From Burkholderiales bacterium (GTDB lineage: Bacteria; Pseudomonadota; Gammaproteobacteria; Burkholderiales; SG8-41), in the NCBI GenBank assembly GCA_038106575.1, contig JAYOED010000006.1:1-62159 (forward strand): a stretch of 62,159 nucleotides of DNA, read 5' to 3'. The position numbers and the translations under genes are program-made. Below the pieces are notes generated by a model. It had not been told where the DNA came from. It saw only the letters and a program-made list of their open reading frames with translations, and ran no database searches. Below, one piece after another: positions 4,968-38,857 of the stretch. Position 1 is the first letter of the stretch. Every line of letters starts with the position of its first letter.

Positions 4968-5498
4968 ATGACCCTGCGCGTCCTCGACCCCCGGCAATCG
5001 GCCCACGGCGAAGCCCTGCGCCTCGCGCCGCCACTAGCCTCCCTCGACGGTGCCGTCATCGGCATGATCGACAACGCCAAGATCGGCACCGAGCGCCTGT
5101 TCGACTTCGTTGAAGAAATTCTCAAGAAGGAACACGGCGTGCGCGAATGCATCCGCCGCCGCAAGCCCGACGCATCACGACCGGTGCCGGAGGCCATGTT
5201 GCTGGAAATGCGCGGCGCCGATGCCGTGCTGGCGGCAATCGGCGACTGAGGCAGCTGCTCGTCGTGCAGTCTGCACGACGCAATCGCAGCAGAACGGCTC
5301 GGCATCCCGGCGGTGGCCATCATCACCGACCGCTTTGCGCGCACCGCTCAGTCGGTAAGCCAGGTCAACGGACTGAAGGACTATCCCTTTGCGGTGATTT
5401 CGCACCCGGTGGCCAACAACAACGATGAAGTGCTACGCGAGAAAGCGCGCATCGCGCTCGCCGACATCCTACCGATGCTGATGCAGCGATCCGCGTAA
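4968..5498 (+). CDS. UGSC-motif selenoprotein (in-frame UGA at 5247-5249 read as selenocysteine), 176 aa
   Basis: ORFs 4968..5249 and 5313..5498 share one frame and are separated only by a TGA. Reading through gives ...ADAVLAAIGD-U-GSCSSCSLHDAIAAERLGIPAVAIITD..., conserved in two paralogs that carry TGA at the same column. AGGAGAG RBS before ATG 4968. Hairpin at 5260-5280. Confidence 0.8.
5260..5280 (+). promoter_or_regulatory. putative bacterial SECIS hairpin
   Basis: The 8-bp perfect stem CGUCGUGC/GCACGACG with loop AGUCU starts 11 nt after UGA 5247-5249. Confidence 0.6.
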
Positions 5499-8386: not shown

Positions 8387-10116
8387 CAAATCCGGCACTC
8401 GTCGGCGGTGCAACCCAGATCGCGATCCGATTCGGCCAGCAGCCGGTCGAATGACTCCGGCGTGCGGATCACCCGTCCCACGACTGCAGGCGAATGCGCC
8501 TGCAGCCACTGGCTGTGCGTCGGATGGTCGCCGCCGGCGACCACCAGGATCAGGTTGTCGGGTTTCTGCGCGATCGGCCACGGATCGAGCCTGATGCTGT
8601 CGCGCGCCACCGGATTGGCATCGATCTCGATCCACGCCGGCCCGCCGCCGCGCTTGAGTTGCGCCATCGGAATCTTCGAATTTTCCCAGAGAAAATCACG
8701 CAGCTTCTTCGGCGTCCAGCCGAGCTTCGCCATCATGCCCGCGACCACCGGCGAGATCAGCATCGCGCCGGGCGTGCCCTTCTCCCATCCTGCCAGCGCG
8801 GCAAGATTCGGCGTGCGCATGAAATCCGCCATGCGCCACAGGCCCTGGGTGATGTCCTCTTCCGGCGTTTCCTTTTTTGCGCCACGGCGGCGGATGTTGC
8901 TGACGCCGCTGGCGAAAAACACCGACACTGCGTTTGTACCGGGCTCGAAACCGTGGCGCTGGGTCGCATGCGGCGCCCAGCCCTCGGGCAGGCTCGCCTC
9001 ATCCTCGGCAAACACAGCGTTGGTGTAGCGCATCGCGCCGAAGATCGCCATGGTGCCGATGCCCGGCAGCGCGCCGCCGACGTTCTGCTGCAGCAGGCGC
9101 AGCGCGCGGCCGATGCTGGCACCGGCGGGCCGCTGCGGATCAGGGCCGAGACAGCCAAAACCGGAATTGAGGCGGATGTCCTCCGCAATCGGGCCGTTGA
9201 CGATGACGACCGGAAAAGGGCTGCCCGAAGTCGCCTGCACCTGATCGAACAGCGTTGCGGGATCGAGGCAGGCCTCAACCGCAGCAACCAGCACCGGCAG
9301 GTACTCGGGTCGACCCCCGGCCATCGCCAGCGCCACCGCGCAGGTCTCGACCGTGGTGACGCCGCCGCGCGGCGGGAACTTGCCCAGCACCTGTGTGCGC
9401 GGGTAAGCCGAGCCGCGCAGTATCCAGTCGACGCGCTCGCGTGTCGCCGGCCACACCGGCAGGCCGTCGCCCCACAGATTGGTGATCAGCAGGTTGTTGG
9501 CTTTCTGCAGCGCGTCCTCATAGGTTTTCCCCTCCACGCTCAACATTGGCAGTTCGCCGTCTGCGGATTGCGCGTAATCGGATTTCCATTTCATCAATCC
9601 GTTGTAGAACTCCTTCTTGCGGGTGGAAATCGCCGTCAGATCGCTTCCCGGCAGGAACATATCGATCGGAAACGTCACCATCGCCGCATCGGGCGCAAGA
9701 CCGAGGCCCGACACCGCATTCTTCATCACGCCGACAAAATCCGTCCGCGTCAGGGTGACGGTGGGTATTCCCAGTGTTTCTATCCTCGCGGCAGCACGGC
9801 CGCAAGCGGTGGCGCAGGAGCCTCAGGCCGCGTTGCCGACGATGACCGCTTCAACGCCGCTTTTCTGGACCAGCGCAGCGGTCTCCTCGGTGGGAATCAG
9901 CACATTACCCTGGGGATAGGCATCGATCGGCAGCAGTTCCGCAGTCGGATAATCGGCCTTGATCAGATCGCGCAGCAGCGGCAGCATGCGAAACGCCTGC
10001 CACTGCTCGTTACTGACGAAACCGATGCGCTTGCCGTCGAGGGTATCGATGCGTGGCGCAAACGGCAGGGTGACCTCCAGCGCGCCGGACGGATCATGAA
10101 ATTCAAGTGTGACCAT
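8386..10116 (-). CDS. fused UGSC-motif selenoprotein + DGLPxxPPT domain (UGA at 9823-9825 read as Sec), 576 aa
   Basis: ORFs 9823..10116 and 8386..9729 share one frame and are joined across a TGA: ...VEAVIVGNAA-U-GSCATACGRAAARIETLGIPTVTL... The C-terminal part has NLWGDGLPVWPAT, MAGGRPEYLPVLVAAV and IVNGPI. GGAGG RBS before ATG 10116. Confidence 0.8.
9785..9806 (-). promoter_or_regulatory. putative bacterial SECIS hairpin
   Basis: Stem CUUGCGGC/GCCGCGAG (8 bp, one G-U pair) with loop CGUGCU, starting 17 nt after the UGA. Confidence 0.55.
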
Positions 10117-18403: not shown

Positions 18404-20103
18404 CAACGTCGCCCCGGCATCGCAATGGCCTTGCACACTGGAAACCCCAGTACCCCGTTGTGCGCGAACACGTAAATGCTGTTGCGGCCGAGATCGCCGG
18501 TGACAACGATCTGATAATCCCCGGGCCTCCATACCACGGGCACCAGCCGCTCCGGATCATCGGACTCGTGGAACAGCTTTGGAATGCGCCCGGCCTCGTG
18601 TTCCTCCTTCAGATTCCATGTCGGCTTCTGCGTCCAGTCGCGGAGAATGCGCTCGAAACGGTGAGCGGGCATGCGCGCCCGCGCAAACAGTTCCTCGCGG
18701 AATTTCTGCTTCGACCAGCCGCTGCCGGCGATGGTCTCGGCGACGATCGGCGACATCAGAATCAGCGGCCGCAGCGTGTCGTAGCCCTGCCCTACCGAAA
18801 ACATGATCTGCCATGAATACTGGCTGATCACCGCGTCGGCGATGTAAGGCATCAACTCTTCGGGTTTCGATCCCGACACCGACGAAATGTGGTTGCCGCC
18901 GGTGTAGCGCCCGACCGACAGCGCGTTGGTGCCTGCGGCGAAACCGTAATCGGCGCAGTTCGGCGTCCAGCCGATTTTCTTCACCACGTCCTCGTTCTCG
19001 GCCACCACCACGCGCCAAGTGTTGCCGAAAGTGGCCTTGTCGTTGCCGTGCGGCAGGAAGCCAGCGATGTTGCGCAGGCACAGCCGCCAGAAGCGGCCGA
19101 CCGTGGAATTAGCCTGGAAACCATCGCGCATCACGCCCTGCGTGTAATTGAAACCGAGTTCCTTGATCACCGGGCCGTTGAGGACGATCAGGTTCTCGCC
19201 GCCGGGGGTATTGCCGCTGTGCTCTACGCCATAGTTGTGATCCGCCATCGCTTCCACCGCCGCCACCAGCACCGGCATGTACTCCGGGCGGCAGCCCGCC
19301 ATTACGCCGTTGACTGCGGCGCTCCACACCGTCGCCGTGCGGTTGTCGGGCAACAGCACGCCAATGACTTCATCGGGTTTGCGGTCGGTATATTTTAAGA
19401 AAGCCTCGACCTTCTCCACCGTAGGCGGCACGACCGGCAGCCCGTCCGACAGCTGGTTGGCGATAAAATATTCGTTGATCTCTTCAAATGAGCCGGTGCA
19501 GACGACATCACGCGCCCCCGGTTCGCCGCTGACGGTTTTCGCCGCCGGCATGGTCAGCAGGTTGTCGATCACGCTGTTAAGCGTCAGCTCGCGCACGTTC
19601 TGCTGCAACGCTTCCTTGCTCTGCAAGCCAGGATGGCCACGCACCGGTGCCACCGCAATGTTCGGAAAACCTAAACCCTGCGAGGCCGCCTTTGCCAGCG
19701 TCATGAAGCTCTCACAGACCAGCGTCGAGGAGGGAATCCCTGCGCCTTCCGCCGCCACACTCGCCCGCAACACGGCGGGCGTGCAGCTTCCTCAACAACC
19801 CATCCCGGAAACGACGGCGTCGGCACCGAGCTCGCGAAGCTTCTGCGGCAGGTTGGCCACCACATTACGCTCGTCACTGCCATGGGTATTGCCGAACAGA
19901 TCCCAGTGCAGGAATTTCACGCCCGGATATTTCGCCGCCAGGCTTTTCTCAAGCTGCTCGAACACCTCGTTGCCGCGGAACACATAGTCCCACACCCAGG
20001 CGATGGTTTTGCCTTGCAGCGTATCGAGCCGTTTCGCCAGCGGTTTGACCTTGGCCTGGCGCGGACCGCGCGGCCACAGCGCCGCGTATTGCCGATCTGT
20101 CAT
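18403..20103 (-). CDS. fused UGSC-motif selenoprotein + DGLPxxPPT domain (UGA at 19792-19794 read as Sec), 566 aa
   Basis: ORFs 19792..20187 and 18403..19773 share one frame and are joined across a TGA: ...ADAVVSGMGC-U-GSCTPAVLRASVAAEGAGIPSSTL... The C-terminal part has NQLSDGLPVVPPT, MAGCRPEYMPVLVAAV and VLNGPV. Start set at ATG 20103, preceded by an AGGAG RBS. Confidence 0.8.
19762..19781 (-). promoter_or_regulatory. putative bacterial SECIS hairpin
   Basis: 7-bp perfect GC-rich stem CGCCCGC/GCGGGCG with loop CGUGUU, starting 11 nt after the UGA. Confidence 0.6.
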
Positions 20104-20225
20104 GCGAACTCCTGATTTTTCTTTTGATGGAACAGCATAACGCAACATTGCTCGGCGCCAGACACGGTTTCCACACTGCGGCGCCATGTCGCTAGAATCG
20201 ATGCTTCACCCCTATCCGGTATTGC

Positions 20226-22430: not shown

Positions 22431-23213
22431 TCACTCCCACAGCCGCTCGGGTAGCGGCAGCCCGGCGAGATCGGCGGCGGTCAGCGGCCGGTCGGGGGTG
22501 ACGCCGATGCGCTCTAATACCTCAATCAGCTGCCGGCAGTGCTGCGCCGAATGCCAAGTCACCCGCTCAAGCACTAGGTGCGCGGGGGTTTCTCCAAAAT
22601 AAGTCTTGAGCACGCGTTCGAGTTCGCGATCTTCGATCCCGGTCCACCAGGATTCGAAGCGCTTCCACACGCCTTCGCCGTAGCACGCGATGTCGTCGCC
22701 GCTCTGTAATGCTTCCGGCGGCTCGTTATCGGCAATCTTCACCGAATACTCGGCGCCGTCCCAGGTTTCGAGGAACGACTCGCCGATGCGGAACACGTGG
22801 TAGCACAGCGTACGAATTACACGCTCGCGATGCGGAATCACGCGGTCACGAAAATGCTCCGCCGGAAACTGGCGCGCGTAACGCGCCGCAGCGGCAAACA
22901 CCATTCCGTATTTTCTGTACAGCTGTTCCGGAGAAAGGCGATCCTTACCCGGCAGCGGCAGTCTGGCAAACTTGGCAAAGGGATCGAGCATCTGGCCGAA
23001 TGCGTATTTATCGCCCTTCGCCAGCACCGGAACCTTGCGGATGCCGTATTTGTTGAACAGCAATTCACGGCCGCCCGGGTCGTTCAGCACATCGATCACG
23101 AGCATGTCCACACCATTTTTCGAAAGAAACTCTTTCGTGCGAAGGCAGCTACTTCACCCGGGCTGGGTGAAATAAAGAAATTTGTCGGCGGGGATGTCGG
23201 TCAATGTCGTCAC
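22431..23213 (-). CDS. glutaredoxin-like (U-x-x-C) + DinB/YfiT-like domain selenoprotein candidate (UGA at 23154-23156), ~260 aa
   Basis: The frame upstream of track ORF 22431..23111 stays open except for one TGA: (V)TTLTDIPADKFLYFTQPG-U-SSC-LRTKEFLSKNGVDMLVIDVLNDPGGRELL..GIRKVPVL. This is a Grx/Trx fold with Sec at the first redox position. The C-terminal domain has a DinB-like HSAQH motif. The start (GTG 23213 or TTG 23204) is uncertain. Confidence 0.65.
23121..23137 (-). promoter_or_regulatory. putative bacterial SECIS hairpin
   Basis: Stem CGAAAG/CUUUCG (6 bp) with loop AGUUU, starting 17 nt after the UGA. It is weaker and more AU-rich than the other three. Confidence 0.4.
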
Positions 23214-23299
23214 GAGATTTTACTGCGAAAGAAGCGGTATTGTAGTGCCATCGCAGCCGCTAGAGGTAGTTACAAAATAATCAATTAAAAAATATTTAA

Positions 23300-24253
23300 T
23301 CAATATCCGCGGGTCCGGTCCACCTCCGTGATGAACGGTTCGCTAGCAATATGGCGCCTCGCGTTTTCGGCAAAGATGTCGGCCACCATCGCGCCACGGG
23401 TGGCGTGGCCGCCGCCGATGTGCGGCAGCACGACGATGTTTTCAGTGGTCCAGAACGGATCCGAGGGCGGGAGTGGTTCTTCGCGAAATACATCGAGCAC
23501 CGCGCCGGCGATGGTCTTCCCCTTCACCGCGGCGATCAGATCTTCATCCTTGATCAGCGGGCCGCGGCCGAAGTTGAGCAGCCAGGCTGTAGGCTTCATC
23601 GTCTTCAGCCGCGTGGAATTCATGAAATTCTCGGTCTCCGGCGTTACCGGCATCAGCAACACGACGAAATCCGACTGACGCAGTACTTCTTCTGACTGAT
23701 AGCTGCTACAAACTCTTTCCACGCCATCCAACGCACCCGGCGTACGCTTGGTGCCGATCACCCGCATTTCCAACGCCGCCGCCTTGCGCGCGAGTTCCTG
23801 CCCGATAAAGCCAAGGCCGAGGATGCCTAGCGTCTGTCCGGCGAGCAACGCCGACTGTCGCCGCGTCCAGTGGCTCTGCTTCTGGTCCTGCACTACCGCC
23901 GCGTAGGGCTTGGTCAGGTGGAACAGTGCGCCGAGGATGTTCTCCGACATCGAGTGGCGGTGCGAGCCACGCGCGCAGCAAAGCGCAACCTCGTCGCGCA
24001 GGCCGGGCGCGCCGAGCCAGGCTTCGACGCCGGCGGTCATCGCCTGAATCCAGCGCAGCTTGGGCATGCGGGCGAGCAGCTTGCCGTGCCTCCAGCTGGC
24101 GAGCACCTCCACCCGCGGAATGATGTCATCTGGCGGCGTTCCATCGCGCGGCACGTGATGCAGTTCAAAATGATCGCCGAGGCCCGCGCGAGCGAGGGAT
24201 TGTTCGTAGGCTTTAAAATCATCCAGCCAAAGCAGACAGACGGGCTTGCTCAT
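23300..24253 (-). CDS. D-isomer-specific 2-hydroxyacid dehydrogenase family protein
   Basis: 317 aa, with the NAD motif GILGLGFIGQELARKA plus LLNFGRGPLI and the catalytic-His region VVLPHIGG. Confidence 0.85.
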   Translation of the reverse strand: MSKPVCLLWLDDFKAYEQSLARAGLGDHFELHHVPRDGTPPDDIIPRVEVLASWRHGKLLARMPKLRWIQAMTAGVEAWLGAPGLRDEVALCCARGSHRHSMSENILGALFHLTKPYAAVVQDQKQSHWTRRQSALLAGQTLGILGLGFIGQELARKAAALEMRVIGTKRTPGALDGVERVCSSYQSEEVLRQSDFVVLLMPVTPETENFMNSTRLKTMKPTAWLLNFGRGPLIKDEDLIAAVKGKTIAGAVLDVFREEPLPPSDPFWTTENIVVLPHIGGGHATRGAMVADIFAENARRHIASEPFITEVDRTRGY

Positions 24254-38176: not shown

Positions 38177-38857
38177 GTGTCAAACATCGGTTTTCGCATC
38201 CTGCCGCCCGCCCCGCAACCGCCGCGTGAATGGATCAAGGCTCTGCGCAGCATTGTCACCGCCCACTTGAGCGACAACATGAGCCGGCTGAAAGCCGTTT
38301 CCTCCGACATCCGTCCTTATCACGACAAGACCAAGCTGGTCGGCACCGCCTTAACCGTCAAGGTTCCCCCAGGCGACAACCTGATGGTGCACAAGGCAAT
38401 CGACATCGCACGACCCGGAGACGTCATCGTCGTCGATGCCGGTGGTATCTGCACCAACGCCATCATCGGTGAAATCATGTCGTCAATGGCGCTCGCTCGC
38501 GGCGTCGCCGGCATGGTCATCGACGGCTCCATCCGCGATGCCGATGCCGTGGCCAAATCCAGTTTTCCGGTTTTTGCCAAAGGTATTACCCACCTCGGCC
38601 CCTACAAGAACGGCCCCGGCGAAATCAATGTGCCGGTATGCATCGGGGGGGCTATCGTGAACCCGGGCGACATCGTGGTCGGTGACGAAGACGGTTTGGT
38701 CATGGTCCCGCAAGGCGAAGATGTCGCGAAACTCATCGAAATCGCGATAGCCTATGCCGAGAAAGAAGACGTAATGCTCAAGAACATCCGTAGCGGCAAG
38801 GGCGTCGACCGCTCCTGGGTCGACAAGACGTTGATAGAGAAGGGCTGTACGTTCTAA
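38177..38857 (+). CDS. RraA-family protein
   Basis: 226 aa, GDVIVVDAGG...ARGVAGMVIDGSIRD core. Confidence 0.8.
   Translation: MSNIGFRILPPAPQPPREWIKALRSIVTAHLSDNMSRLKAVSSDIRPYHDKTKLVGTALTVKVPPGDNLMVHKAIDIARPGDVIVVDAGGICTNAIIGEIMSSMALARGVAGMVIDGSIRDADAVAKSSFPVFAKGITHLGPYKNGPGEINVPVCIGGAIVNPGDIVVGDEDGLVMVPQGEDVAKLIEIAIAYAEKEDVMLKNIRSGKGVDRSWVDKTLIEKGCTF

What the first reader, a model, noticed from the sequence alone, without database searches (positions are those of the whole stretch)
22431..23213. Fourth candidate selenoprotein: a glutaredoxin-like U-x-x-C domain fused to a DinB/YfiT-like domain
The annotated-looking ORF (22431..23111) begins in the middle of a thioredoxin fold. Extending it upstream in frame gives KFLYFTQPG-U-SSC-LRTKEFLSKNGV..., the canonical beta1, redox motif and alpha1 of a glutaredoxin. 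TGA (23154-23156) sits at the position of the nucleophilic Cys. A 6-bp hairpin with loop AGUUU follows 17 nt later.

The C-terminal ~170 aa contain an H-x3-H (HSAQH) segment, as in DinB/YfiT-type metal-dependent thiol transferases. Members of that superfamily use low-molecular-weight thiols such as bacillithiol or mycothiol. A covalently attached Sec-glutaredoxin could replace such a cofactor.
Basis: partly seen in the sequence, partly recalled or inferred. Interest (0 to 1): 0.72.

Follow-up and report, generated by a model that had tools for sequence, protein, structure and literature searches.

The report
Selenocysteine glutaredoxin fused to DinB domain
The "226-aa DinB protein" gene is really a 260-codon selenoprotein gene whose in-frame TGA encodes selenocysteine in a U-S-S-C glutaredoxin motif joined to a DinB/YfiT-type metal-binding domain; the family is widespread, routinely annotated as truncated, and absent from current selenoprotein inventories.

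Summary
On the minus strand, an ORF from GTG 23213 (or TTG 23204) to the stop at 22431 reads through TGA 23156-23154.

- **Domains.** Pfam Glutaredoxin matches residues 13-69 across the TGA (E=1.6e-11). The C-terminal part is a DinB/YfiT four-helix bundle with a conserved His triad (H139, H221, H225).
- **TGA and upstream frame.** All 41 related betaproteobacterial MAG loci with this region keep both. Of 79 more distant metagenome relatives, 67 have TGA and 12 have TGC/TGT at that column.
- **Cys homologs.** Full-length homologs read QPG-C-(S/T)-S-C-LRTKEFL.
- **SECIS hairpin.** CGAAAG-AGUUU-CUUUCG (23137-23121) starts 16 nt after UGA. Its six codons are the only ones, out of 141 conserved degenerate codons, with no synonymous variation. 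Cys forms encoding the same peptide lack the hairpin. A second Sec subclade has a different hairpin 30 nt downstream, with compensatory base changes.
- **Sec decoding.** Three UGSC-type Sec candidates lie in the same window.

Function is inferred: a tethered selenol/thiol redox centre serving a His3-metal DinB-type thiol-transferase domain. The Grx-DinB architecture is not among the 119 selenoprotein families of a 2026 review, and no NCBIfam model reaches its cut-off.

The parts
22431..23213 (-). Full selenoprotein CDS: 260 codons from GTG 23213-23211 plus the stop codon TGA at 22433-22431. The start is GTG 23213 or TTG 23204.
   Evidence: Translation. tblastn of the read-through protein covers 23213..22434. 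The frame is conserved in 41 genome loci and 79 metagenome loci.
23211..23213 (-). Most upstream possible start codon, GTG, 19 codons before Sec. The alternative is TTG at 23202-23204, 16 codons before Sec. Which one is used is unresolved.
   Evidence: Homologs have ATG 15 or 18 codons before Sec, many with an upstream AGGAG-like motif. In the window the orthologous codon is ACG and no clear Shine-Dalgarno sequence is seen. An independent assembly (L043) has the identical sequence.
23154..23156 (-). In-frame UGA encoding selenocysteine (U20), the N-terminal nucleophilic position of the U-S-S-C redox motif.
   Evidence: TGA is invariant in 41/41 close loci and 67/79 distant loci; the other 12/79 have TGC or TGT. 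Cys homologs align C15 (P0125 numbering) to U20.
23145..23147 (-). Cys23, the resolving cysteine of the UxxC motif.
   Evidence: Nearly invariant in alignment A1 (C18 of P0125) and conserved in all Sec forms.
23121..23137 (-). bSECIS hairpin (type A): stem CGAAAG/CUUUCG, loop AGUUU (or a 7-bp stem with loop GUU). It begins 16 nt after UGA.
   Evidence: In 81 unique Sec-form sequences the third-codon-position entropy inside the hairpin is 0-0.19 bits, against 0.5-1.9 bits in the flanks. The hairpin is absent from all 12 Cys-form loci.
23118..23138 (-). 21-nt block ACGAAAGAGTTTCTTTCGAAA, nearly invariant at the nucleotide level among the betaproteobacterial orthologs. The ACGAAAGAGTTTCTTTCG part is identical in all 42 sequences. 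The last codon is AAG in L032, and L031 reads AAC at that spot.
   Evidence: The six codons ACG AAA GAG TTT CTT TCG are the only single-codon columns among 141 conserved degenerate codons.
22959..23183 (-). Glutaredoxin/NrdH-like thioredoxin-fold domain (about residues 11-85), including the cis-Pro position P62 in the VPV motif.
   Evidence: Pfam PF00462 scores 44.7 bits against a cut-off of 22.9, over residues 13-69. A family profile hits Grx/NrdH/BC3987 structures. The model has beta-alpha-beta-alpha-beta-beta-alpha topology.
22434..22937 (-). DinB/YfiT-like four-helix-bundle domain (about residues 93-260), ending in the conserved GLPxPE(R/x)LW motif.
   Evidence: DinB_2 matches at E=3e-4 in the window protein and in 27/35 family members. 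Foldseek hits are 6iz2 (TM 0.84), 1rxq, 8f5v and 2p1a.
22797..22799 (-). His139, the first member of the putative metal-binding His triad, on bundle helix 2.
   Evidence: Nearly invariant H133 of A1. It lies on helix 127-145 of the model.
22539..22553 (-). H221-S-A-Q-H225 (H-x3-H) within the invariant ERxxWHxxQHxRQ motif on bundle helix 4.
   Evidence: H213 and H217 of A1 are invariant. The motif ERx[TVA]WHx[AGT]QH was the most conserved stretch and was used.
22431..22433 (-). The gene's true stop codon. It is also TGA, so TGA is not globally reassigned in this organism.

Best explanation
**What is shown.** This is a genuine bacterial selenoprotein gene of 260 codons on the minus strand (23213..22431).

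- The UGA at 23156-23154 is most likely recoded as selenocysteine by SelB and tRNA-Sec. The signal is a short bSECIS hairpin inside the coding sequence (23137-23121).
- The product has two domains. The first is an N-terminal glutaredoxin/NrdH-like thioredoxin fold with active site U20-S-S-C23. A linker of about 10 residues joins it to a C-terminal DinB/YfiT-type four-helix bundle. That bundle keeps the His triad (H139, H221, H225) that binds a divalent metal in characterised members.

**What is inferred.** The DinB-like domain binds a metal and a substrate, as bacillithiol and mycothiol S-transferases do. The tethered selenolate of U20 acts as the nucleophile or reductant. It would form a selenenyl-sulfide with C23, or a mixed Se-S bond with a substrate or low-molecular-weight thiol. 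That bond would then be re-reduced by thioredoxin reductase or glutathione. Sec in place of Cys would raise nucleophilicity and resistance to over-oxidation.

The gene identity, recoding signal and domain architecture are shown. Metal binding, substrate and catalytic cycle are inferred. The confidence given (0.85) is for the selenoprotein identity, recoding signal and architecture; for the specific catalytic model I would say about 0.4.
For: 1. The glutaredoxin HMM spans the UGA.
2. TGA and the upstream reading frame are conserved in 41/41 genome loci. Synonymous changes occur upstream: P with 4 codons, G with 3, Y with 2.
3. Among distant relatives, 67 have TGA and 12 have TGC/TGT at the same column. 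Full-length Cys homologs read QPGC(S/T)SCLRTKEFL.
4. The hairpin codons are the only 6 of 141 conserved degenerate codons without synonymous variation, and they are contiguous. The same holds over 81 unique sequences, down to about 37% protein identity.
5. Cys forms encode the same K-E-F-L peptide with other codons and no hairpin. 0/12 Cys forms reach 5 of 6 pairs, whereas 67/67 Sec forms have at least 5/6 in hairpin A or B.
6. A second Sec subclade uses another hairpin. All 168 cells are paired, 3 pairs show compensatory changes, and shifted-register controls pair in only 9-61% of cells.
7. TGA is also the gene's terminator. Three UGSC-type Sec candidates lie in the same window, one above the NCBIfam cut-off.
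8. The AlphaFold model of a Cys homolog has pLDDT 92.8 and pTM 0.86. Its C-terminal domain matches DinB/YfiT structures, including mycothiol S-transferase, and its N-terminal domain matches small redoxins.
9. The His triad and ERxxWHxxQHxRQ motif are invariant and lie on bundle helices 2 and 4. Helices 2 and 4 of the bundle form the active-site pocket in BstA, and conserved His residues hold the metal in BstA and YfiT (PMC10950700).
Against: - There is no direct evidence of Sec insertion, and no selA/selB/selC/selD or tRNA-Sec in the window (one search found no tRNAs).
- The hairpin is short and A-U rich. It is -6.3 kcal/mol alone, and the surrounding 71 nt fold no better than shuffles (z = 0.35).
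- No Rfam family matches.
- The type A hairpin is nearly invariant, so it offers no covariation of its own.
- The window protein's DinB_2 score is below the Pfam cut-off.
- The window copy lacks the ATG start of its orthologs and has no obvious Shine-Dalgarno sequence.
- Gene neighbourhood is not conserved, so it does not point to a substrate.
Confidence: 0.85

Rival explanations
1. Functional rival: a GST-like, glutathione-dependent enzyme. The Grx domain acts as the glutathione-binding site, as the thioredoxin-fold N-domain does in canonical GSTs. U20 forms a mixed selenenyl-sulfide with GSH, like the catalytic Cys of omega-, beta- or xi-class GSTs. The DinB bundle acts as the hydrophobic substrate site. 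The enzyme would be a deglutathionylase, thiol-transferase or reductase rather than a cofactor-free seleno-transferase.
For: - The architecture is a thioredoxin fold followed by a helical domain. Foldseek lists many GSTs at probability 0.97-1.0.
- A few family members give weak GST_N_2 or GST_N_3 hits.
- Betaproteobacteria use glutathione (general knowledge).
- The DinB superfamily is reported to include glutathione S-transferases (Newton et al. 2011, cited in PMC10950700).
Against: - The GST matches have TM-scores of 0.26-0.31 and rmsd of 12-16 A, so there is no real global similarity.
- The closest redoxin relatives are NrdH, BC3987 and YruB types. To my knowledge, characterised members of these are reduced by thioredoxin reductase, not GSH.
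- The classical Grx glutathione-binding motifs were not examined.
Confidence: 0.3
2. The TGA is a real stop. The gene starts at GTG 23111 or ATG 23105, as annotated in databases (224-226 aa 'DinB family protein'). The conserved upstream frame would be a separate 19-codon leader peptide or untranslated sequence.
For: Gene callers and NCBI annotate 224-aa products, and all of the best 120 database hits are 218-226 aa. The window copy has a weak start context.
Against: - The annotated start falls inside a thioredoxin fold, so the truncated product would lack beta1, the redox motif and alpha1.
- Full-length Cys homologs are continuous through this column.
- Hairpin presence correlates perfectly with TGA versus TGC/TGT.
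- Protein-level conservation continues on both sides of the TGA.
Confidence: 0.03
3. The invariant palindrome is not a SECIS. It is a DNA operator, an attenuator or another RNA element. The UGA would be read through by another mechanism, or the gene is an inactivated Cys-to-stop pseudogene.
For: The hairpin is thermodynamically weak and matches no Rfam model. It is a perfect DNA inverted repeat.
Against: - More than 100 independent sequences keep the TGA under purifying selection on both sides. A pseudogene would not.
- The element sits at the distance from UGA expected for a bSECIS and has G/U in the loop (criteria recalled from memory).
- A second subclade replaces it with a different hairpin that shows compensatory changes. 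This indicates RNA pairing rather than a DNA sequence motif.
- Cys forms have neither hairpin.
Confidence: 0.03
4. Functional rival: the protein is a redox sensor or regulator (Spx/ArsC-like use of the CxxC fold), or a metal or metalloid (As, Hg, Se) handling protein. Sec and the His triad would together ligate a metal ion rather than catalyse thiol transfer.
For: A family profile weakly hits Spx and ArsC-like chains. The gene sometimes neighbours UGSC selenoproteins of unknown function. Sec-metal ligation is known in formate dehydrogenases and [NiFeSe] hydrogenases (PMC13188914).
Against: The Spx and ArsC matches cover only about 40 residues around the CxxC motif. No DNA-binding or RNA-polymerase-binding features were found. 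The resolving Cys is conserved, which favours redox cycling.
Confidence: 0.1

Closest known systems
Selenoprotein glutaredoxin (Grx, PF00462, UxxC). It appears in the 2026 inventory of prokaryotic selenoproteins (PMC13188914); the Clostridium Sec-Grx was experimentally verified (Kim et al. 2011, cited there).
   Same: Thioredoxin fold, with Sec at the N-terminal position of a UxxC motif at the start of alpha1. Sec/Cys interchange occurs among homologs, and the SECIS lies inside the coding region just downstream of UGA.
   Different: Known Sec-Grx proteins are single-domain. This one carries a C-terminal DinB/YfiT domain of about 170 aa. Its motif is U-S/T-S-C, and its closest redoxin relatives are NrdH, YruB and BC3987 types.
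DinB/YfiT (S-transferase-like) superfamily: bacillithiol S-transferase BstA/YfiT (1rxq, 5kw0), M. tuberculosis mycothiol S-transferase (8f5v), and D. radiodurans DR0053 (6iz2).
   Same: Four-helix bundle with His residues on helices 2 and 4, including the H-x3-H motif. Structural superposition gives target-normalised TM-scores of about 0.62-0.84 for these DinB-type chains. DinB_2 HMM hits occur across the family.
   Different: Characterised members are stand-alone homodimers that use a diffusible low-molecular-weight thiol. None is reported with a fused redoxin domain or with selenocysteine: 'DinB' occurs 0 times in the selenoprotein reviews and databases checked. Sequence identity is only 14-19%.
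UXX-star Grx-like selenoprotein families and the HUGP/GUXX-star fusion selenoprotein (NCBIfam NF041212, NF041114, NF041211, NF047338, NF045501).
   Same: Small Grx-like thioredoxin folds containing Sec, some as fusions. They give weak HMM similarity to residues 13-73.
   Different: Scores are far below the cut-offs, for example 27.6 vs 66 bits. In those families the Sec lies near the C-terminus ('star'). Here it is at the N-terminal CxxC position and is followed by 240 residues.
Canonical glutathione S-transferases with a catalytic Cys.
   Same: An analogous architecture: an N-terminal thioredoxin-like domain carrying the catalytic residue at the alpha1 N-terminus, followed by an all-helical domain.
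   Different: The helical domain has a different fold. Foldseek TM-scores are 0.26-0.31 with rmsd above 12 A. This is an analogy, not homology.

Membership tests
Bacterial selenoprotein gene (SelB/bSECIS-dependent UGA recoding) | An in-frame UGA with protein-level conservation on both sides across homologs. | tested here: met
   41/41 genome loci and 67/79 metagenome loci, with synonymous variation upstream and downstream.
Bacterial selenoprotein gene (SelB/bSECIS-dependent UGA recoding) | Homologs with Cys aligned to the UGA. | tested here: met
   12 loci have TGC/TGT, and all but one (P0269) of the 35 fetched full-length proteins carry C-x-x-C at this column.
Bacterial selenoprotein gene (SelB/bSECIS-dependent UGA recoding) | A stem-loop shortly downstream of UGA with G/U in the apical loop (bSECIS). 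| tested here: met
   - The hairpin is at 23137-23121 with loop AGUUU, and the apical loop starts 22-23 nt after UGA.
- Synonymous variation is suppressed only there.
- Presence of a hairpin correlates fully with TGA.
- An alternative hairpin in another clade shows covariation.
- Stability is weak (-6.3 kcal/mol) and there is no Rfam hit.
Bacterial selenoprotein gene (SelB/bSECIS-dependent UGA recoding) | The host encodes selA, selB, selC (tRNA-Sec) and selD. | not testable with these tools
   There are no tRNAs in the window and the rest of the genome is not available. Indirect support comes from three UGSC-type Sec candidates in the window, one above the NF041046 cut-off.
Bacterial selenoprotein gene (SelB/bSECIS-dependent UGA recoding) | Selenium incorporation demonstrated by 75Se labelling or mass spectrometry. 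| not testable with these tools
   Requires an experiment.
Glutaredoxin (Pfam PF00462) | An HMM score above the gathering cut-off, with the redox motif at the N-terminus of alpha1 and a cis-Pro loop. | tested here: met
   The score is 44.7 bits against 22.9, over residues 13-69. U20-S-S-C23 precedes helix 1 in the model. P62 is conserved in the VPV motif.
Glutaredoxin (Pfam PF00462) | Glutathione-dependent disulfide reduction. | not tested
   The best NCBIfam and PDB relatives are YruB, NrdH and BC3987 types. The reductant is therefore uncertain.
DinB/YfiT superfamily (Pfam DinB_2 PF12867) | An HMM score above the gathering cut-off. | tested here: inconclusive
   The window protein scores 21.7 bits against a 24.8 cut-off. 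Homolog P0125 scores 29.4 bits, and 27/35 family members match at E<=0.01.
DinB/YfiT superfamily (Pfam DinB_2 PF12867) | A four-helix-bundle fold superposable on solved DinB/YfiT structures. | tested here: met
   The model has pLDDT 92.8. Matches are 6iz2 (TM 0.84, rmsd 2.8-2.9 A), 1rxq (TM 0.65-0.71), 8f5v (0.67) and 2p1a (0.75-0.77). The model is of homolog P0125, which is 43% identical to the 224-aa product P0001, not of the window protein itself.
DinB/YfiT superfamily (Pfam DinB_2 PF12867) | A conserved metal-binding His triad, one His on helix 2 and H-x3-H on helix 4. | tested here: met
   H139, H221 and H225 are invariant or nearly invariant and lie on the corresponding helices. Residue-by-residue superposition on the YfiT ligands was not done.
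DinB/YfiT superfamily (Pfam DinB_2 PF12867) | Metal-dependent thiol S-transferase activity. | not testable with these tools
   Requires biochemistry.
UXX-star Grx-like selenoproteins (NCBIfam NF041212 and relatives) | An HMM score above the curated cut-off. | tested here: not met
   27.6 bits against 66, with others lower.
Glutathione S-transferase | Global fold similarity to GST structures. | tested here: not met
   TM-scores are 0.26-0.31 with rmsd 12-16 A.

The most novel reading that the evidence does not exclude
The Sec of the tethered redoxin domain reaches into the His3-metal pocket of the DinB domain. There it acts as a built-in selenolate that replaces the diffusible thiol (bacillithiol, mycothiol or glutathione) used by other DinB-type S-transferases. 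Alternatively, it acts as a fourth, selenium ligand of the metal. Either way, this would be a cofactor-independent 'seleno-transferase/reductase' and the first selenoenzyme of the DinB/YfiT superfamily. In environmental bacteria the Sec form would be the predominant one.
Probability: 0.25. Interest if true: 0.8.

Novelty: new variant of a known kind. Interest (0 to 1): 0.6.

Why it matters
1. **Annotation.** Gene callers and NCBI cut this gene at the UGA and call the remainder a 224-aa "DinB family protein". The search found 3659 related database entries, and all 120 best-scoring ones listed are of that truncated length. Of 79 metagenome relatives, 67 are Sec forms. A sizeable, widespread selenoprotein family is therefore effectively missing from databases and from the 119-family inventory.

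2. **Biochemistry.** This links selenocysteine to the DinB/YfiT thiol-transferase superfamily for the first time. Physiological substrates in that superfamily are largely unknown. A fused redox partner gives a concrete, testable hypothesis about how such enzymes are supplied with a nucleophile in glutathione-using Proteobacteria.

3. **Recoding.** The family carries two different in-frame SECIS solutions at different distances from the same UGA. Each constrains the encoded peptide (K-E-F-L-S versus S-V-R-G-I). This makes it a useful natural system for studying SECIS turnover and the co-evolution of coding and RNA structure.

Tried and rejected
- **Rfam.** A scan of the whole window at gathering thresholds, and of 22900-23350 at E<=10, found no SECIS or other relevant family.
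- **Thermodynamics.** The 71-nt fold has a z-score of 0.35, so it gives no support by itself.
- The search of protein representatives would not accept the U-to-C full-length sequence. The truncated P0001 was used instead.
- **Gene neighbourhood.** TctC (Bug) genes are near in 17 of the 41 related genome loci and in the window, but in variable positions and orientations. A CaiB-like 868-aa gene lies upstream in 9 loci, and a UGSC gene is adjacent in 4. There is no conserved operon, so no substrate inference was made.
- **Gentisate-pathway idea.** A DinB-type maleylpyruvate isomerase next to an FAA-hydrolase gene was considered. It was dropped because the FAH neighbour occurs only in the window's own contig.
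- **Paralogs.** The other 226-aa ORF at 38177-38857 is unrelated, and tblastn finds no second copy of the gene in the window.
- **GST homology.** Rejected on TM-score.
- **Model geometry.** Model coordinates are not exposed. The Sec-to-metal distance could not be measured.
- **Literature.** Searches combining DinB with selenoprotein, selenocysteine or glutaredoxin found nothing describing this fusion.
Full report
**1. The observation**

On the minus strand, the ORF listed mechanically as 22431..23111 (226 aa, GTG start) is preceded in the same frame by (V)TTLTDIPADKFLYFTQPG-TGA-SSCLRTKEFLSKNGVDM. The TGA is at 23156-23154. The frame is open back to a TAA two codons upstream of GTG 23213-23211. 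The gene's own terminator at 22433-22431 is also TGA, so TGA is not reassigned genome-wide.

With the TGA read as Cys, the 260-residue product matches Pfam Glutaredoxin over residues 13-69, across the TGA at residue 20 (E=1.6e-11, 44.7 bits against a cut-off of 22.9). It matches DinB_2 weakly (E=3e-4, 21.7 bits against 24.8). NCBIfam gives only sub-threshold hits to YruB, NrdH and UXX-star Grx-like models.

CGAAAG/CUUUCG with loop AGUUU (or 7 bp with loop GUU) lies at 23137-23121 and begins 16 nt after the UGA.

**2. Is the TGA a Sec codon?**

*Close relatives.* A protein search returned 3659 relatives. The best 120 are all 218-226 aa and cover 86% of the query, meaning they were cut at the same place by gene callers. 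One carries the NCBI name "DinB family protein" (MBI4207658.1).

Forty-two loci were fetched from GTDB genomes. Most are labelled Burkholderiales or Betaproteobacteria MAGs; one is labelled Rhodospirillaceae and five carry Streptomyces or Bordetella labels. In all 41 that include the region, the TGA is in frame. The upstream peptide M-x4-(D/E)(K/Q)(Y/F)(L/M)YFTQPG is conserved up to an ATG 15 or 18 codons upstream. The upstream codons vary synonymously: Pro with 4 codons, Gly with 3, Tyr with 2. This indicates purifying selection on translated sequence.

*Cys homologs.* An exhaustive HMMER search of 50%-identity representatives found full-length homologs of 247-276 aa. Their N-termini read QPG-C-(S/T)-S-C-LRTKEFL, with Cys aligned to the TGA.

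*Distant relatives.* A metagenome scan using the family's most conserved motif returned 80 diverse loci at 37-49% identity to a Cys form, plus that form's own locus at 100%. Of the 79 with a locatable motif, 67 have TGA and 12 have TGC/TGT at the column. One of the 67 is a GOS contig, AACY023306817. Representatives that begin "MRTKEFL..." or "MKEFL..." turned out to be further Sec forms cut by the gene caller.

A rough neighbour-joining ordering shows one large Sec clade of the window's type, a second Sec clade, and Cys forms and a few Sec forms interspersed. This suggests several Sec/Cys exchanges. I did not test the tree's robustness.

**3. The recoding signal**

*Invariance among orthologs.* In the 42 betaproteobacterial sequences, the 18 nucleotides ACGAAAGAGTTTCTTTCG are identical, while flanking codons vary. 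The following AAA codon changes in only two of them.

Across a codon alignment of 39 complete genes, 141 codons are conserved and degenerate, with a mean codon entropy of 1.02 bits. Exactly six of them use a single codon. They are consecutive (ACG AAA GAG TTT CTT TCG) and coincide with the hairpin. My estimate of the chance that six such columns are contiguous among 141 is about 1e-8.

*Wider sampling.* Over 81 unique Sec-form sequences of this type, third-position entropy is 0-0.19 bits within the hairpin and 0.5-1.9 bits outside. The six core pairs are 98-100% paired. The closing A-U pair is broken in 2 sequences, so a 6-bp stem with a 5-nt loop is the conserved core.

*Control with Cys forms.* Cys forms encode the same K-E-F-L peptide with other codons (for example ACC AAG GAG TTT TTG ACC) and cannot form the hairpin.

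*A second hairpin type.* A second Sec subclade (U-T-S-C, 28 sequences) lacks the constraint on these codons. Instead it has UCGGUC-CGUGG-GAUCGA, starting 30 nt after the UGA. All 168 cells are standard pairs. Three of six pairs show compensatory double changes. No shuffle out of 500 reaches the observed values, and shifted registers pair in only 9-61% of cells.

*Association with TGA.* In the metagenome set, 65/67 Sec forms have a perfect hairpin of one type or the other and 2/67 have 5 of 6 pairs. None of the 12 Cys forms reaches 5 of 6 for either type.

*Limitations.* The hairpin alone is only -6.3 kcal/mol. The 71-nt region folds no better than shuffles. Rfam has no matching model. The position (apical loop 22-23 nt after UGA) and the G/U-containing loop fit the published bSECIS description as I recall it; that criterion comes from memory and was not tested.

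*Sec decoding in this organism.* The window contains three further UGA-containing frames with the UGSC motif. One passes the NCBIfam NF041046 cut-off with 131.9 bits against 125. No tRNA or sel gene was identified in the window.

**4. The protein**

All family-invariant residues are present in the window protein: P18, U20 (aligned to Cys), C23, K27, E28, P62 (cis-Pro position), H139, W189, G207, E216, R217, W220, H221, Q224, H225, R227, Q228, and G251-L-P-x-P255.

An AlphaFold2 model of the Cys homolog P0125, built with 35 family sequences, is confident (pLDDT 92.8, pTM 0.86). It shows a beta-alpha-beta-alpha-beta-beta-alpha redoxin domain, a short linker, and a helical bundle.

Foldseek against the PDB matches the C-terminal domain to:
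- DR0053, a DinB/YfiT protein (6iz2; TM 0.84, rmsd 2.8-2.9 A);
- B. subtilis YfiT, a bacillithiol transferase (1rxq);
- M. tuberculosis mycothiol S-transferase (8f5v);
- BCE_2162 (2p1a).

It matches the N-terminal domain to BC3987 and an archaeal Grx. GSTs appear in the list, but with TM-scores of 0.26-0.31, so they are only an architectural analogy.

A family profile hits Grx, NrdH and BC3987 chains, and 6iz2. No solved chain contains both domains. Of 35 members, 34 match Pfam Glutaredoxin and 27 match DinB_2. H139 lies on bundle helix 2 and H221/H225 on helix 4. In BstA the active-site pocket is built from bundle helices 2 and 4, and conserved His residues hold the metal in BstA and YfiT (PMC10950700).

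**5. How it most likely works**

*Shown.* The gene is a UGA-containing ORF with an in-frame hairpin that behaves as a SECIS in comparative analysis. It encodes a redoxin(UxxC)-DinB fusion.

*Inferred.* SelB and tRNA-Sec insert Sec at codon 20. The DinB-like domain binds a divalent metal through the His triad and positions a substrate. The selenolate of U20 attacks, as a built-in nucleophile or reductant, or after forming a mixed Se-S bond with glutathione. C23 resolves the intermediate to a selenenyl-sulfide. Thioredoxin reductase or glutathione then regenerates the enzyme.

The main functional rival is a GST-like, glutathione-dependent enzyme in which the Grx domain is the glutathione-binding site. 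Gene context does not discriminate between them. TctC genes are frequent but variably placed, a CaiB-like gene lies upstream in 9 loci, and UGSC selenoprotein genes are adjacent in four loci.

**6. Start codon**

The window copy has ACG where its nearest subgroup (MNLxDIPADKF...) has ATG. GTG 23213 or TTG 23204 must serve as the start, and no clear Shine-Dalgarno sequence is seen. An independent assembly has the same sequence (L043). Either start leaves the beta1 strand intact.

**7. Comparison with what is known, and novelty**

Sec-containing glutaredoxins (UxxC) are an established selenoprotein family. The 2026 inventory of 119 prokaryotic selenoprotein families lists single-domain Grx and several Grx-like families, but nothing with a DinB domain (PMC13188914). 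"DinB" does not occur in that review, the 2022 review, the deep-Sep paper or the BSepDB paper.

No open-access paper was found that combines DinB with selenoprotein or selenocysteine in this sense. NCBIfam release 20 has no model that reaches its cut-off. The family may have been counted under "Grx" in earlier metagenome surveys, since a GOS contig carries it. I could not check this.

I therefore rate it a new variant of a known kind: a UxxC thioredoxin-fold selenoprotein with a new domain architecture that is not separately described.

**8. Verdict**

The selenoprotein call is very likely correct. The catalytic model is plausible but untested.

Noticed in passing
window 4968-5495 (+), TGA at 5247-5249: A UGSC-family selenoprotein candidate (…AAIGD-U-GSCSSC…). 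With U read as C it scores 131.9 bits against NCBIfam NF041046, above the cut-off of 125.
   Followed up: partly
window 8389-10116 (-), TGA at 9823-9825; and window 18406-20109 (-), TGA at 19792-19794: Two long frames (576 and 566 aa if read through) have an N-terminal UGSC-like domain containing U-G-S-C, joined to a C-terminal region of about 400-430 aa. The UGSC match is below the NCBIfam cut-off (44-46 bits). Gene callers split the same architecture into 105 aa and 463 aa, both hitting PF24696, in locus L050. This may be a UGSC fusion subfamily.
   Followed up: partly
L004 3370-3861, L008 4226-4717, L041 3704-4195, L050 3775-5502; window 18406-20109: In several genomes a UGSC selenoprotein gene lies next to, or within about 3 kb of, the Grx-DinB selenoprotein gene, often with an MFS transporter between or beside them. 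This may be a selenoprotein gene cluster, but it is present in only 4 of about 45 loci.
   Followed up: partly
metagenome loci L055-L130 (type B), for example L060 and L079; also L049: A second subclade of the same protein family (motif U-T-S-C…KEFLSVRGI) uses a different SECIS hairpin: UCGGUC-CGUGG-GAUCGA, 30 nt after UGA, with compensatory changes in L079 and L049. One selenoprotein family therefore has two alternative in-frame SECIS elements.
   Followed up: yes
window 23202-23213 (-): The window's copy has ACG where the closest subgroup of orthologs has the ATG start. Only GTG (23213) or TTG (23204) remain as possible starts, and no obvious Shine-Dalgarno sequence is present.
   Followed up: partly
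L017, L022, L024, L025, L028, L029, L035, L038, L042 (upstream of the gene): In nine loci, a gene of about 868 aa resembling a family III CoA-transferase sits immediately upstream in the same orientation. The resemblance is judged from its N-terminal motif only. It is not present in the window.
   Followed up: no
record titles of L003, L016, L027, L013, L040: Some MAGs carrying near-identical betaproteobacterial-type genes are labelled 'uncultured Streptomyces' or 'Bordetella parapertussis'. These are probably binning or labelling artefacts.
   Followed up: no
window 38177-38857 (+): Another 226-aa GTG ORF of identical length is unrelated to the finding. By eye it looks like an RraA/aldolase-like protein, and tblastn shows no similarity to the finding's gene.
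   Followed up: partly
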